Part shown: piece by piece, positions 9,001-12,000 of the stretch | Layout: each line of letters opens with the position of its first letter | Numbering within the stretch: the stretch's first letter is position 1 | IMG/VR virus record: IMGVR_UViG_2802429217_000003 | DNA: 42,375 bases | From: a virus | Lineage: Duplodnaviria; Heunggongvirae; Uroviricota; Caudoviricetes | Strand: one strand, 5' to 3' | Program-made: the position numbers

Positions 9001-12000
9001 CAGGCCGTTTACCGGAAAGCGCATTTCAGCCACGGCGGATCATCCGGCGATTCTGTCGTAGTGCATTGATTGAAATTAATCGTGCCGGAGCGTTTTGTTC
9101 GGTATCAGTTAAATGTAACGCTGCGAGCGTTACAAGGTGAAAACAATATGGCTTCAAACTGGATAAAGCTCGAAGTTATTACGCCGGATAAACCGGAAAT
9201 ATTCAGGATTGCTGAGATTCTTAATATTGATCCAGATGCCGCATTAGGGAAGGTCATTCGATTCTGGGCATGGGCGGATCAACAAATGATTGATGGTAAC
9301 GCAGAGTGTAACGCTCGAGGCGTTACAAAAAGTGCAATAGACCGTATCACTTTTATGGCTGGTTTTGCTGATGCGTTAATTCAGGTTGGATGGCTGGTCG
9401 AAAGTGATGGAGTGCTTTCACTACCTAACTTTGAGCGTCATAACGGAAAAAGCTCGAAAAAACGGGCGGTTACAAACGAGAGAGTTACAAAAATACGCGA
9501 ACTGAAGCGAAAAGGTAACGCTGCCAGCGTTACACAAACGGATCAAAAAGCGTTACCAGAGGAAGAGGAAGAGGAAGATAAAAATACTGATCTCCCCCTA
9601 AATCCCCCTCGGCAAAAACGAGCGTCTAAAAAATTCGAGCCGGAGGCCATTGCTCTGCCCGACTGGTTGCCAGAAACACTCTGGAATGAGTGGGTCCAGT
9701 TCAGGCAGGCATTGCGAAAACCGATTCGAACGGAGCAGGGCGCTAACGGGGCGATACGGGAACTGGAAAAATTCCGCCAGCAGGGTTTTACCCCTGAGCA
9801 GGTGATTCGACACAGCATCGCCAATGAATACCAGGGCTTGTTCGCGCCGAAAGGTGTTCGGCCTGAGACGTTGCTCCGACAGGTTAACACCGTCTCGTTG
9901 CCGGACAGTGCGATCCCGCCAGGCTTCAGGGGGTAACTGACCATGAAAAATATTGCGACAGGCGGCGTTCTGGAACGTATCCGCAGACTGGCCCCGTCAC
10001 ATGTAACCGCGCCATTCAGGACGGTGGCGGAGTGGCGCGAGTGGCAACTTGCAGAAGGCCAGAAACGTTGCGAGGAGATCAATCGCCAGAATCGTCAGTT
10101 GCGGGTGGAAAAAATTCTGAATCGCTCCGGCATCCAGCCGTTGCACCGCAAATGCTCGTTTTCGAATTACCAGGTGCAGAACGACGGCCAGCGATACGCG
10201 TTGAGCCAGGCGAAATCCATCGCCGATGAACTGATGGTCGGGTGTACAAATTTTGCGTTCAGCGGAAAACCTGGTACCGGAAAAAACCATCTGGCGGCGG
10301 CTATCGGGAATCGCTTGCTGAAAGACGGTCAGACAGTGATTGTGGTTACCGTGGCTGATGTTATGAGTGCTCTACACGCCAGCTATGACGACGGGCAATC
10401 AGGCGAAAAATTTTTGCGGGAACTGTGCGAAGTGGATCTGCTGGTTCTTGATGAAATTGGCATTCAGCGCGAGACAAAAAACGAGCAGGTGGTACTGCAC
10501 CAGATTGTTGATCGCCGGACAGCGTCGATCCGCAGCGTGGGGATGCTGACAAACCTGAACTATGAGGCCATGAAAACATTGCTCGGCGAGAGGATTATGG
10601 ATCGGATGACCATGAACGGCGGGCGATGGGTGAATTTTAACTGGGAGAGCTGGCGCCCGAATGTTGGTCAGCCAGGAATTGAGAAGTAATTTTTACCGGG
10701 AGGAAATTTTAATGGAGACCGTTTTTGACGCACTGAAAGCAATGGGAAAAGCCTCTTCCCAGGAAATGGCAGCACGTCTGGGAATGACCCGGGATGAGGC
10801 GATTAACGAGCTGTGGAAACTGAAGCGTCGTGGGGAAGCTGATAACAAGGGCCCGATGTGGTGGTTGACTCAAACCGACGAAAACGCATCTGTAGCACAG
10901 GCTTCTAAAGTGACAGCGCAAATGCTGATCGAGGCGATTGAACAGCATGGCCCTAAAGCGGCTGATGAACTTGCACTGATATTCAGAATTACTTCCCGCA
11001 GGGTGAACTCATCGCTGGCTATGGCCATCAGCAAAGGTCGTCTGATTCGCGTAAATCAGAACGGTAAATTTCGTTACTGCCTGCCGGACGGTAATTTACC
11101 AGCAGAGCCGAAAGTTGTATCGGTAGTTAAAACACCTGGTAAAGGCTTTCCTCAGCCAGCCGGTGTTGCGTTACCAGTACAGGAAGCGGCAACACAGGAA
11201 GAAATTAAAACAGATACTGTGGGGGACATTGTGCAGTCACTACCATCGTTCACTGAAACGCGAGCCAATGACCTGATTTTACCATCGCTGCAAATGGCAA
11301 ACCGCGAACTGCGCCGGGCGAAAAGTCATGTCCAGAAGTGGGAGCGAGTCTGCGCCGCGCTGCGTGAGCTGAACAAGCACCAGGACATTGTCCGTCAGAT
11401 TGTCGATTCCTCCAGTCGTATTGTGTCGGAAAAGTGATTCCAGGGGAGGGCTTATGGCAAAAGTATTAACACAGGAAGAGCGAGAAAAAATTAAAGGGCA
11501 GATTGTTGATCTCGTACGCCAGAGCGGGCGAGAGACGTTACGACAACTGGAAGCTAAAACAGGGGCAACCAGATATCTGATAAGTATTCTCGCCAAAGAG
11601 CTGGTTTCGAGTGGTGACGTATACAACACTGGCTATGGGTTATTTCCGTCTGAGCAGGCACGTCAAGACTGGCAAAACGCCCGCAAAAAACTCTCGAGGG
11701 CAAAGTCGAAGGAACCGGTTATGGTTGATCCTGACCTTATCTGGTCATTACCAGACGGAGAAATACGCCGCTACGACAGGTGTCAGAACATAATTTGTCG
11801 CGAGTGCCGGAAGAGTGAAGTTATGCAGCGTGTATTAGCATTTTATCAGGGGAATGTTGGTATTTATTGAAGTGACGAGATTAAAGACCACTAATTCATA
11901 TGTGAATTGACAGTTTCATGGCACAGGATACGGCTAGCGTGGTTGTCTGTTTTGTGCCAGGGGCGGACCTTAAGCTTCAGTAATTTGATTAGCACAATCC

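What the first reader, a model, noticed from the sequence alone, without database searches (positions are those of the whole stretch)
9115..9556. Three perfect 19-bp dyads and extra half-sites within and just upstream of the replication initiator gene: candidate origin/initiator binding sites
The dyad GTAACGC-N5-GCGTTAC occurs three times (9115, 9308, 9515), with additional GTAACGC or GTTACAAA half-sites. The coding sequence accommodates them (VTLRAL, NARGVTK, NAASVTQ), which suggests selection at the DNA level. Lambdoid origins lie inside the O-like initiator gene, but the roughly 200-bp spacing here is unlike tandem lambda iterons, so these could instead be sites for another regulator.
Basis: seen in the sequence. 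Interest (0 to 1): 0.5.

Follow-up and report, generated by a model that had tools for sequence, protein, structure and literature searches.

The report
Replication origin inside prophage initiator gene
The three perfect 19-bp dyads are real and are held constant at the DNA level from E. coli to Planctomycetes, so they are most likely the sites where this Rac-like prophage's replication initiator binds its own gene to start replication, as in phage lambda but with an uncharacterised initiator family.

Summary
**Observation: confirmed.** GTAACGC-N5-GCGTTAC occurs perfectly at 9115, 9308 and 9515. Chance predicts 0.07 matches. Eight of the window's 15 GTAACGC 7-mers lie in 9115-9556.

**Interpretation: supported by comparison, not by experiment.**
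- In all 52 distinct homologous N-terminal domains examined (95 loci), the two intragenic dyads sit at the same gene positions. These loci run from Enterobacteria to Planctomycetota and fall to about 50% amino-acid identity.
- The N5 spacer varies freely.
- Only the four codons that build the half-sites are codon-invariant, out of 68 conserved degenerate columns.
- The second intragenic dyad is read in two different reading frames in different lineages.
- It is always followed by another half-site, then a polypurine tract and an A/T-rich stretch.
- More distant relatives switch every half-site in a locus together, to GTCACGC or GTCCGCA.

- That N-terminal domain is not YdaU/DUF1376. Only the C-terminal half matches K-12 YdaU.
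- The first dyad (9115) is non-coding.

**Best reading:** a lambda-style origin embedded in the initiator gene. The core is 9515-9603, with accessory dyads about 200 bp and 400 bp upstream. It is a new member of a known kind, and neither binding nor origin firing has been tested.

The parts
9115..9133 (.). Upstream dyad GTAACGC-TGCGA-GCGTTAC. It lies in the ydaT-ydaU intergenic spacer and ends 1 nt before the ribosome-binding site (AAGGTG 9135-9140; ATG 9148). It is an accessory site and a possible autoregulatory operator.
   Evidence: An equivalent dyad sits at -32 to -44 (one at -76) in 30 of 52 distinct homologues. In Pantoea L011 the upstream copy is a roughly 44-bp duplicate of the intragenic site.
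9296..9302 (+). Extra direct half-site GTAACGC, 12 nt upstream of the next one. It comes with a 4-codon insertion (NAEC) relative to the TL-2011b-type genes.
   Evidence: The same 12-nt-phased direct half-sites recur in relatives.
9308..9326 (.). Intragenic dyad 1, GTAACGC-TCGAG-GCGTTAC. It encodes CNARGVT (aa 54-60), a low-confidence surface loop of the N-terminal domain.
   Evidence: Present at +148/+160 in all 52 distinct homologues. The codons GGT, AAC, AGC and GTT are 100% invariant, while other conserved residues use all synonymous codons. The loop at aa 49-56 has pLDDT below 50.
9482..9488 (-). GAGTTAC, a one-mismatch half-site (weak).
   Evidence: Many enterobacterial relatives have a perfect GCGTTAC at this place. 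GTTACAAA on its own is not enriched.
9515..9533 (.). Intragenic dyad 2, GTAACGC-TGCCA-GCGTTAC, in the segment coding the inter-domain linker. This is the core initiator-binding site of the proposed origin.
   Evidence: Present at +337 to +412 in all 52 homologues. It is read as GNAxSVT in frame 1 or as VTxxAL in frame 0, depending on lineage.
9550..9556 (-). Terminal half-site GCGTTAC (GCGTTACCAGAG), 23 nt after the right arm of dyad 2.
   Evidence: A half-site (GCGTTAC, or a one-mismatch variant such as GAGTTAC) lies 11, 12 or 23 nt after dyad 2 and directly abuts the polypurine tract in most of the 32 relatives displayed. In two (L015, L017) the right arm of dyad 2 itself abuts the tract.
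9558..9578 (+). A 21-nt all-purine run, (GAGGAA)n, encoding poly-Glu.
   Evidence: It is the longest purine run in the whole window. 132 of 174 distinct family loci have a purine run of at least 15 nt at this place. It is read as EEEEE or as EKRREEK, so it is the purine run rather than the peptide that is kept.
9574..9609 (.). A/T-rich low-stability stretch (GAAGATAAAAATACTGATC) followed by a C-rich block (CTCCCCCTAAATCCCCCT). This is the candidate unwinding region. The mosaic junction with the K-12 ydaU allele lies at about 9575.
   Evidence: The 30-mer 9574-9603 has a duplex stability of -34.1 kcal/mol, against a regional mean of -41.6 (sd 3.3). K-12 homology starts at query position 506, which is window 9575. 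K-12 has the same AT-rich and C-rich block after its own, different repeats.
9148..9936 (+). Initiator gene (262 aa).
- N-terminal winged-helix-like domain: aa 1-113 (9148-9486).
- Disordered linker: about aa 114-165.
- C-terminal domain shared with K-12 YdaU: from about 9575.
9943..10689 (+). ydaV, a DnaC/IstB-like AAA+ helicase loader and the presumed partner of the initiator's C-terminal domain.
   Evidence: Pfam IstB_IS21 1.8e-19 and Bac_DnaA 2.9e-8.

Best explanation
**What it is.** The dyads and lone half-sites are the recognition sites of the prophage's own replication initiator. Together with the adjoining polypurine and A/T-rich stretch they form the phage replication origin, which lies inside and just upstream of the initiator gene.

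**Proposed mechanism.**
1. Dimers of the N-terminal winged-helix domain (aa 1-113) bind each TGTAACGC-N3-GCGTTACA dyad. Extra monomers bind the half-sites phased 11-12 bp away.
2. The downstream cluster (9515-9556) abuts the 21-nt purine run and the A/T-rich segment (9558-9603). This is the core, where the duplex is opened.
3. The dyads about 200 bp (9308) and 400 bp (9115) upstream are accessory sites. They are drawn into the same nucleoprotein complex by looping or wrapping, as in an O-some.
4. The dyad at 9115, next to the ribosome-binding site, may also autoregulate the gene.
5. The C-terminal domain (K-12 YdaU type) then recruits the DnaC-like loader YdaV and host DnaB.
6. The N-terminal domain and its sites form one exchangeable specificity module. 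The mosaic junction with the K-12 allele lies at about 9575.

**Shown.** The sites exist. They are under DNA-level selection. They travel and co-vary with the N-terminal domain. The adjacent composition is conserved.

**Inferred.** Physical binding, which domain does the binding, strand opening, looping and loader recruitment.
For: 1. **Enrichment.** 3 perfect dyads against 0.07 expected, and 8 of 15 half-sites within 442 bp.
2. **Conservation.** 95 loci (52 distinct N-terminal domains) all keep two intragenic dyads at +148/160 and +337 to +412, with no dyads elsewhere in the loci. They include E. coli, Klebsiella, Enterobacter, Pantoea, Pectobacterium, Coralloluteibacterium and three Planctomycetota. 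30 of the 52 also keep the upstream dyad.
3. **Frozen codons.** The test used 27 genes with pairwise DNA identity of 53-93% and GC3 of 0.30-0.75. Of 68 conserved degenerate codon columns, only four are codon-invariant. They are exactly the half-site codons: GGT 25/25, AAC 27/27, AGC 23/23, GTT 26/26. Mean normalised codon entropy elsewhere is 0.83.
4. **Frames and downstream tract.** Dyad 2 is read in two reading frames. The downstream polypurine tract is kept whether it encodes EEEEE or EKRREEK.
5. **Concerted specificity switches.**
   - 27 distinct loci use GTCACG/CGTGAC at every site: 8.1 per kb inside the region against 0.49 per kb outside.
   - Phage epsilon15 and others use GTCCGCA/TGCGGAC in the same arrangement (two direct then two inverted half-sites, followed by the polypurine tract), with a second cluster about 280 bp upstream.
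6. **Family-wide pattern.** Of 174 distinct loci, 158 have at least 3 copies of one 6-mer at +290 to +470, and 132 have a purine run of at least 15 nt just downstream.
7. **Only the N-terminal domain is constant.** The C-terminal domains differ (YdaU-C, DnaT, others). So do the downstream partners (DnaC-like, P-like, DnaB-like, none) and the upstream genes.
9. **K-12 comparison.** The K-12 Rac allele has an unrelated DUF1376 N-terminal domain and no GTAACGC dyads. It carries its own repeats (ATGTTCAAACA) at the equivalent linker position, followed by the same AT-rich and C-rich block.
10. **Lambda precedent.** Lambda has four 18-bp iterons plus a 38-bp AT-rich sequence inside gene O (PMC3349717).
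Against: - No experiment links these sites to binding or to replication.
- The A/T-rich segment is only moderately unstable. It ranks fifth among 30-mers in 8300-10700.
- The core holds one dyad plus lone half-sites, not four tandem iterons.
- Distances between dyads vary among relatives (189-264 bp) without a constant helical phase, so obligatory looping is not established.
- The sites lie inside the N-terminal domain's coding sequence.
- The residues that discriminate the specificity classes were not corrected for phylogeny.
- The dyads could also form 7-9-bp hairpins in single strands, at -8 to -10 kcal/mol.
Confidence: 0.75

Rival explanations
1. The dyads are autoregulatory operators only. 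The initiator, or another locus-encoded protein, binds them to repress transcription or translation of the ydaU-ydaV operon, by roadblock or by occluding the ribosome-binding site. The true origin lies elsewhere.
For: The upstream dyad ends 1 nt before the ribosome-binding site. Dimeric winged-helix proteins binding palindromes are typical repressors. No promoter-like site lies nearby, so a roadblock or translational mode would be needed.
Against: - The best-conserved cluster is the downstream one in the linker. It is always joined to a polypurine and A/T-rich tract. That suits an unwinding element, not an operator.
- The upstream dyad is missing in 22 of 52 relatives.
- Autoregulation and origin function are not mutually exclusive.
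Confidence: 0.1
2. The palindromes act as single-strand DNA or mRNA hairpins, for example primosome-assembly (ssi) signals or translation and stability elements, rather than as duplex protein-binding sites.
For: Each dyad folds into a 7-9-bp hairpin at -8.2 to -10.3 kcal/mol (z -2.2 to -4.3). The class switch GTAACGC/GCGTTAC to GTCACGC/GCGTGAC preserves pairing. The arrangement of two direct then two inverted half-sites in epsilon15 is also a larger palindrome.
Against: - Stems are sequence-invariant within a class, across phyla, instead of covarying freely.
- Lone and direct-repeat half-sites with no pairing partner are conserved and switch class together with the dyads. Examples are 9296 and 9550, and four direct copies in L076 and L103.
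- The sites keep 11-12-bp phasing, which is typical of proteins bound on one face of the duplex.
Confidence: 0.07
3. The dyads are binding sites for the immunity regulators of this prophage (the DicA-like repressor, the P22-Cro-like protein or YdaT), as the first reader suggested as an alternative.
For: These genes lie immediately upstream.
Against: - The same dyads occur in loci that have no YdaT and carry unrelated repressors, or none. In Stieleria the upstream genes are a helicase-like gene and a DNA-methyltransferase-like gene. In epsilon15 the upstream gene is a DNA methyltransferase. CP2 is a Xanthomonas citri strain-typing phage.
- From my own knowledge, not checked here: the published YdaT operator is TTGATT-N6-AATCAA, which is different.
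Confidence: 0.02
4. The dyads are a by-product of a repeated peptide motif (GNAxSVT), or a chance occurrence.
For: Two of the three dyads encode similar peptides (NARGVT, NAASVT).
Against: - Synonymous positions are frozen only within the half-sites.
- The same DNA is read in a different frame in other lineages.
- One dyad is non-coding.
- Chance predicts 0.07 matches.
Confidence: 0.01

Closest known systems
Phage lambda ori-lambda within gene O (and the analogous origins of P22, phi80 and 82)
   Same: - Initiator-binding repeats with internal dyad symmetry lie inside the initiator's own reading frame, in the part coding the linker between the DNA-binding N-terminal domain and the loader-binding C-terminal domain.
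- An A/T-rich, purine-skewed stretch follows them.
- The N-terminal domain and its sites form an exchangeable specificity module.
- A helicase-loader gene follows (PMC3349717).
   Different: - There is no sequence relationship to O (no Phage_rep_O hit).
- The core has one 19-bp dyad plus phased half-sites instead of four tandem 18-bp iterons.
- Additional perfect dyads lie about 200 and 400 bp upstream, one in a loop-coding segment and one in the 5' untranslated spacer.
- A strict polypurine run precedes the A/T-rich part.
- The loader is DnaC-like, not P.
E. coli K-12 Rac prophage ydaU-ydaV and oriJ
   Same: - Same prophage family and integration site (ttcA).
- Same gene order: repressor, cro-like gene, ydaT, initiator, DnaC-like ydaV, DUF1627.
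- The C-terminal half of the initiator is 86.6% identical in DNA from window 9575.
- The same AT-rich and C-rich block is present.
- Rac is known to carry an active origin, oriJ (PMC3945230).
   Different: - The K-12 YdaU N-terminal domain is DUF1376. The window's is not (Pfam gives no hit; hhalign probability 0.1%).
- K-12 has no GTAACGC dyads. It carries ATGTTCAAACA-type repeats at the equivalent linker position.
- This window therefore carries a different origin-specificity allele. The nucleotide-level definition of oriJ was not found in the searchable literature.
Iteron-type plasmid and phage initiators with winged-helix domains (for example pSK41 RepA, pPS10/R6K Rep)
   Different: There is no sequence similarity. 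The sites here lie mostly inside the coding sequence. The dyad is the conserved unit, rather than long direct iterons.
PHROG 2509 / 9474 / 3926 'replication initiation protein' (epsilon15 gp23, TL-2011b gp12, Xanthomonas CP2 ORF40)
   Same: The window protein is a full-length member of PHROG 2509 (E 4e-89). These phages carry the same site architecture.
   Different: The annotations name the protein only. The records inspected carry no origin or repeat annotation in these genes. Epsilon15 uses a different half-site (GTCCGCA).

Membership tests
Lambda-type origin embedded in the initiator gene | Repeated initiator-recognition sequences inside the initiator's reading frame | tested here: met
   Dyads at 9308 and 9515, plus half-sites at 9296 and 9550, lie within ORF 9148-9936. 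They are conserved in all 52 homologues.
Lambda-type origin embedded in the initiator gene | An A/T-rich unwinding region directly next to the repeats | tested here: inconclusive
   A 21-nt purine run (9558-9578) and a low-stability 30-mer (9574-9603, 2.3 sd above the regional mean) are present. The tract is conserved family-wide. It is only moderately A/T-rich, and unwinding was not tested.
Lambda-type origin embedded in the initiator gene | Four tandem 18-19-bp iterons about 20 bp apart | tested here: not met
   The core has one dyad plus one to three phased half-sites. The other dyads are 193 and 207 bp away.
Lambda-type origin embedded in the initiator gene | Initiator homologous to lambda O (Pfam Phage_rep_O) | tested here: not met
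   No Pfam hit even at E up to 10.
Lambda-type origin embedded in the initiator gene | Site specificity travels with the initiator's N-terminal domain (modular exchange) | tested here: met
   The same N-terminal domain occurs with different C-terminal domains and keeps the dyads. The K-12 allele has the same C-terminal domain, a different N-terminal domain and different repeats. Whole-locus switches to GTCACGC and GTCCGCA occur.
Lambda-type origin embedded in the initiator gene | The initiator binds the sites and the fragment supports replication | not testable with these tools
   This needs EMSA or footprinting and an origin-plasmid or marker-frequency assay.
YdaU / DUF1376 (PF07120) | N-terminal DUF1376 domain | tested here: not met
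   K-12 YdaU hits PF07120 at 2.7e-26. The window protein has no hit. Profile-profile hhalign gives probability 0.1%.
YdaU / DUF1376 (PF07120) | C-terminal region homologous to K-12 YdaU | tested here: met
   86.6% DNA identity from window 9575 to the stop codon. The proteins align closely over the last ~110 residues and are identical over most of that stretch.
DnaT-like (PF17948) phage 'primosomal protein I' | DnaT DNA-binding domain in the C-terminal half | tested here: not met
   The window protein matches DnaT only over a 19-residue tail, far below the cutoff. TL-2011b gp12 does have PF17948.
PHROG 2509 replication initiation protein | Full-length profile match | tested here: met
   E 4e-89 over residues 1-262. 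The N-terminal domain alone gives 4e-67.
Winged-helix DNA-binding domain | Helix-turn-helix followed by a beta-hairpin wing, with structural similarity to known winged-helix domains | tested here: met

The most novel reading that the evidence does not exclude
This may be the type example of a very large initiator family with no Pfam model. A single-sequence search found about 6,300 representatives of 50%-identity clusters, from Enterobacteria to Planctomycetota, including epsilon15, TL-2011b and Xanthomonas CP2.

In this reading the origin is a conserved two- or three-part device. A core cluster sits next to a polypurine unwinding tract, and one or two distal clusters lie 200-400 bp away. The distal clusters are functionally required (for looping or handcuffing) and are not merely tolerated.

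The family would also have a simple, readable recognition code. The natural classes GTAACGC, GTCACGC and GTCCGCA, paired with a few residue changes, could be used to build orthogonal replicons and to predict replication incompatibility among prophages.
Probability: 0.4. Interest if true: 0.6.

Novelty: new member of a known kind. Interest (0 to 1): 0.5.

Why it matters
- **A concrete, testable origin.** The finding gives a nucleotide-level prediction for the replication origin of a common E. coli Rac-type prophage allele. The full-length allele is present in 679 of 5,426 complete genomes.
- **Reach beyond this window.** By extension it predicts the origin for thousands of phages whose initiator is currently annotated as 'hypothetical', 'primosomal protein I' or wrongly as 'YdaU'. 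These include epsilon15, TL-2011b and CP2.
- **Rac alleles.** Rac prophages come in at least two origin-specificity alleles. They share the loader-recruiting module but differ in the DNA-binding domain and its sites. This bears on replication interference and on recombination between co-resident prophages.
- **Coding and binding in one sequence.** A 7-bp protein-binding code has been kept unchanged inside a coding sequence from Enterobacteria to Planctomycetes. The sites sit where the protein is a flexible loop or a disordered linker.
- **Annotation gap.** The N-terminal domain has no Pfam or NCBIfam model.

Tried and rejected
- **Eru types.** I first suspected that TL-2011b belonged to the published 'Eru' replication types of Stx phages. 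The Eru1 paper concerns TL-2011c, whose genes are unrelated (helicase and primase), and it mentions no origin or iterons.
- **Literature.** Searches for the motif, for oriJ and ydaU, for the epsilon15 origin, and for DnaT-type initiators with intragenic repeats found nothing that describes these sites. The library lacks most subscription journals, so the older oriJ papers could not be read.
- **Promoters and terminators.** The scan found no promoter near the dyads. The one 'terminator' it called is simply dyad 2 read on the minus strand.
- **Solved structures.** A profile search of PDB sequences found nothing.
- **DUF1376 remote homology.** The idea that the N-terminal domain is a divergent DUF1376 was tested and rejected at the sequence-profile level.
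- **GTTACAAA half-sites.** As a separate class they are not enriched.
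Full report
**1.

The pattern GTAACGC-N5-GCGTTAC occurs perfectly at 9115-9133, 9308-9326 and 9515-9533. There are no further matches even with two mismatches allowed. Dinucleotide-preserving shuffles predict 0.07 matches, and none of 100 shuffles reached three.

The 7-mer occurs 15 times in the window against 3.0 expected. Eight of the 15 lie in 9115-9556, including lone half-sites at 9296 (+) and 9550 (-).

GTTACAAA is not enriched on its own. The dyads are 193 and 207 bp apart.

**2. Context**

The window is a Rac-family prophage integrated next to ttcA. 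The gene order is:

| Coordinates | Gene |
|---|---|
| 7949-8356, minus strand | DicA-like repressor |
| 8436-8663 | P22-Cro-like gene |
| 8647-9069 | ydaT |
| 9148-9936 | initiator |
| 9943-10689 | DnaC/IstB-like ydaV |
| downstream | DUF1627 and DUF977 genes |

The initiator starts at ATG 9148. Every homologue begins MA..WIK there, and RefSeq uses the same start. The first dyad is therefore non-coding. It lies in the 78-bp spacer and ends one base before the AAGGTG ribosome-binding site.

**3. The protein is a mosaic and only half 'YdaU'**

- DNA similarity to K-12 ydaU begins at window 9575 and runs to the stop codon, at 86.6% identity.
- The first 143 residues have no counterpart in K-12 YdaU. 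K-12's N-terminus is DUF1376 (PF07120, 2.7e-26). The window protein hits no Pfam or NCBIfam model, even at permissive thresholds.
- A profile-profile comparison of the two N-terminal domains gives probability 0.1%.
- The N-terminal domain instead matches PHROG 2509 'replication initiation protein' (4e-67).
- It also matches the N-termini of TL-2011b gp12, the Enterobacter phage BUCT554 and E. coli phage ZX5 'primosomal protein I', and a Klebsiella phage protein. Those proteins have different C-terminal halves: DnaT-like in TL-2011b gp12, and closer to the window's in the Klebsiella protein.
- A single-sequence search of 1.84 billion cluster representatives found 6,299 relatives at E up to 1e-3.
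- Named phages carrying the domain include epsilon15, SPN1S, Xanthomonas CP2, Xylella/Xanthomonas Usme-like phages, and Ralstonia, Pseudomonas and Vibrio phages.

**4. The dyads are conserved as DNA, not as protein**

*Position.* I collected 95 loci encoding 52 distinct N-terminal domains. They came from annotated phages, one genome per species, and viral contigs. Every one has two intragenic dyads (at most 1 mismatch), at +148/+160 and at +337 to +412 from the start codon. There are no dyads anywhere else in the 3-5 kb loci. Thirty of the 52 also have a dyad 32-44 bp upstream of the start; one additionally has a copy at -76. The set includes Pantoea, Pectobacterium, Coralloluteibacterium and three Planctomycetota, at about 50% amino-acid identity.

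*Codons.* I built a codon alignment of 27 genes with 53-93% pairwise DNA identity and GC3 from 0.30 to 0.75. It has 68 columns with a conserved degenerate amino acid. Exactly four are codon-invariant, and they are the half-site codons: GGT 25/25, AAC 27/27, AGC 23/23 and GTT 26/26. The other columns have a mean normalised codon entropy of 0.83. The alanine codon whose third base falls in the spacer uses all four codons.

*Reading frame.* Dyad 2 is translated as GNAxSVT in some lineages and as VTxxAL in others, which is a different frame.

Selection therefore acts on the nucleotide sequence of the half-sites.

**5. Architecture of the downstream cluster**

Aligned on dyad 2, the relatives show the following:
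- direct GTAACGC half-sites 12, 24 and 36 nt upstream;
- the dyad itself;
- in most relatives, a further half-site (GCGTTAC or a one-mismatch variant) 11, 12 or 23 nt downstream, running into CCAGAG;
- then a 20-35-nt all-purine tract, (GAGGAA)n or (GAGAA)n, read as poly-Glu or as EKRREEK;
- then an A/T-rich piece such as GATATAAAAGATAAAA;
- then a C-rich block.

In the window these elements are as follows:
- The terminal half-site is at 9550-9556.
- The 21-nt purine run is at 9558-9578 and is the longest in the window.
- The low-stability 30-mer is at 9574-9603, at -34.1 kcal/mol against a regional mean of -41.6 (sd 3.3).
- The C-rich block follows at 9592-9609.

Over 174 distinct family loci:
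- 158 have at least three copies of one 6-mer at +290 to +470;
- 132 have a purine run of at least 15 nt just downstream;
- 121 of the 158 have further copies of that 6-mer between -150 and +290.

**6. Concerted specificity switches**

- In 27 distinct, more divergent loci the dyad at +148 is GTCACGC-N5-GCGTGAC, and the half-sites of the linker cluster are GTCACG/CGTGAC too. Their density is 8.1 per kb inside the region against 0.49 per kb outside. The GTAACG type is rare there, at 1.2 per kb.
- Epsilon15 and several environmental phages use GTCCGCA/TGCGGAC. In epsilon15 there are two direct and two inverted copies at +333 to +374. They are followed by CCAGAGAAGAGAAGAGAAGAGAAGATATTAAACCCC. A second cluster of the same arrangement lies at +54 to +106.
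- All sites of a locus changing together implies a single sequence-specific reader that changed with them.

The surrounding genes are not conserved:

| Neighbour | Variants seen |
|---|---|
| Partner gene downstream | DnaC-like, P-like, DnaB-like, or none |
| Upstream genes | ydaT, small hypothetical genes, or DNA methyltransferases |
| C-terminal domain of the initiator | at least three kinds |

The only constant companion of the sites is the N-terminal domain itself.

**7. The N-terminal domain looks like a DNA-binding winged helix**

- The AlphaFold model of residues 1-123 has pTM 0.69. Helices run at 16-25, 29-48, 61-68 and 73-80, followed by a beta-hairpin at 84-91 and a long basic helix at 101-122.
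- Dyad 1 encodes residues 54-60, inside the only low-confidence loop of the domain (49-56, pLDDT below 50). Dyad 2 lies in the disordered linker.
- My inference is that the sites sit where the protein tolerates any sequence. The 4-codon insertion NAEC is a 12-nt duplication that adds one more half-site.

**8. Comparison with K-12 Rac**

- K-12 ydaU has no GTAACGC dyads. At the equivalent linker position it carries (G)ATGTTCAAACA repeats: three or four direct copies and one inverted copy.
- These are followed by an A/T-rich segment and the same CCCCCCCTAAATCCCCCCC block at which homology with the window resumes.
- Two alleles of the Rac initiator therefore differ in the DNA-binding domain and its repeats, and share the downstream module. 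This is the modular pattern known for lambdoid O genes.
- Rac is known to contain an active origin, oriJ (PMC3945230). I could not find its nucleotide definition.

**9. Mechanism proposed**

1. Dimers of the N-terminal domain bind the dyads. Monomers bind the phased half-sites, whose 11-12 bp centre-to-centre spacing places them on roughly one face of the helix.
2. The complex at 9515-9556 destabilises the adjacent purine and A/T-rich tract.
3. The distal dyads at 9308 and 9115 join the complex, and the 9115 dyad may also autoregulate.
4. The C-terminal domain brings in YdaV and DnaB.

This matches ori-lambda, which has four 18-bp iterons and a 38-bp A/T-rich sequence inside O (PMC3349717).

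Shown here:
- the sites exist;
- they are under DNA-level constraint;
- they co-vary with the locus;
- the adjacent composition is conserved.

Inferred:
- binding, and the identity of the binder;
- unwinding;
- looping;
- loader recruitment.

**10. Rival explanations**

- *Operator-only function* cannot be excluded for the upstream dyad. It does not explain the conserved polypurine and A/T-rich neighbour of the core.
- *Single-strand hairpins* are thermodynamically possible, at -8 to -10 kcal/mol, and the class switch preserves pairing. However, lone and direct-repeat half-sites are conserved and switch class too.
- *Immunity-regulator sites and peptide-repeat or chance explanations* are contradicted.

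**11. Novelty and score**

- An origin inside the initiator gene is a classical idea, so this is not a new kind of system.
- The initiator family, its half-site consensus, its specificity classes and the distal-cluster layout were not found in the searchable literature. Nor are they in Pfam, NCBIfam or the GenBank records inspected.
- I file it as a new member of a known kind and score interest at 0.5.
- Confidence that these are selected cis-sites tied to the initiator module is about 0.9. Confidence that they constitute the replication origin is about 0.75.

Noticed in passing
L006 2390-2465 (E. coli K-12 Rac ydaU, linker-coding part): K-12 ydaU carries its own repeat set. (G)ATGTTCAAACA occurs at 2394, 2427 and 2439, with an inverted copy at 2453. 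An A/T-rich stretch and CCCCCCCTAAATCCCCCCC follow. These are candidate iterons of the K-12 oriJ, at the position equivalent to the window's dyad 2.
   Followed up: partly
L264 (phage epsilon15, gene p23) +54 to +106 and +333 to +374 from the start codon: Two clusters of GTCCGCA/TGCGGAC half-sites, each with two direct and two inverted copies at 11-13-nt phasing. The second runs into CCAGAGAAGAGAAGAGAAGAGAAGATATTAAACCCC. This is a predicted epsilon15 origin with a third half-site specificity. The part of the record inspected has no origin annotation.
   Followed up: partly
window about 9575: A mosaic junction between the N-terminal domain plus site module and the module shared with K-12 Rac (C-terminal domain and ydaV). 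It falls inside the polypurine and A/T-rich tract, so the two alleles share the candidate unwinding segment but not the binding sites.
   Followed up: partly
window 7949-9069: The immunity region differs from K-12 Rac. It has a 135-aa DicA-like HTH_3 repressor and a P22-Cro-like protein in place of RacR and YdaS. The YdaT homologue is retained.
   Followed up: no
window 12153-13757: A 534-aa ORF with no obvious relatives, examined only as a translation, lies downstream of the replication module. RefSeq calls the equivalent gene in strain H2 'hypothetical protein'. In H2 it is followed by a degraded IS30 transposase gene and a gene annotated as a restriction endonuclease. It may be cargo or a defence gene.
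   Followed up: no
L011 2440-2480 versus 2644-2690 (Pantoea prophage): The upstream dyad region is a near-exact duplicate, about 44 bp long, of the intragenic dyad-1 region. This suggests that upstream accessory sites arise by local duplication of the intragenic site.
   Followed up: no
alignment (window residues 9, 12, 15, 30, 47, 63, 109, 113): Residues that separate GTAACGC-class from GTCACGC-class initiators: E9R, T12L, K15D, D30F, T47S, L63W, T109A and V113Q/K. N51H also separates them but is forced by the DNA change. Positions 109 and 113 lie in the conserved basic segment HNGxxxKxRAxTxxRV and are candidate specificity determinants. Phylogeny was not controlled.
   Followed up: partly
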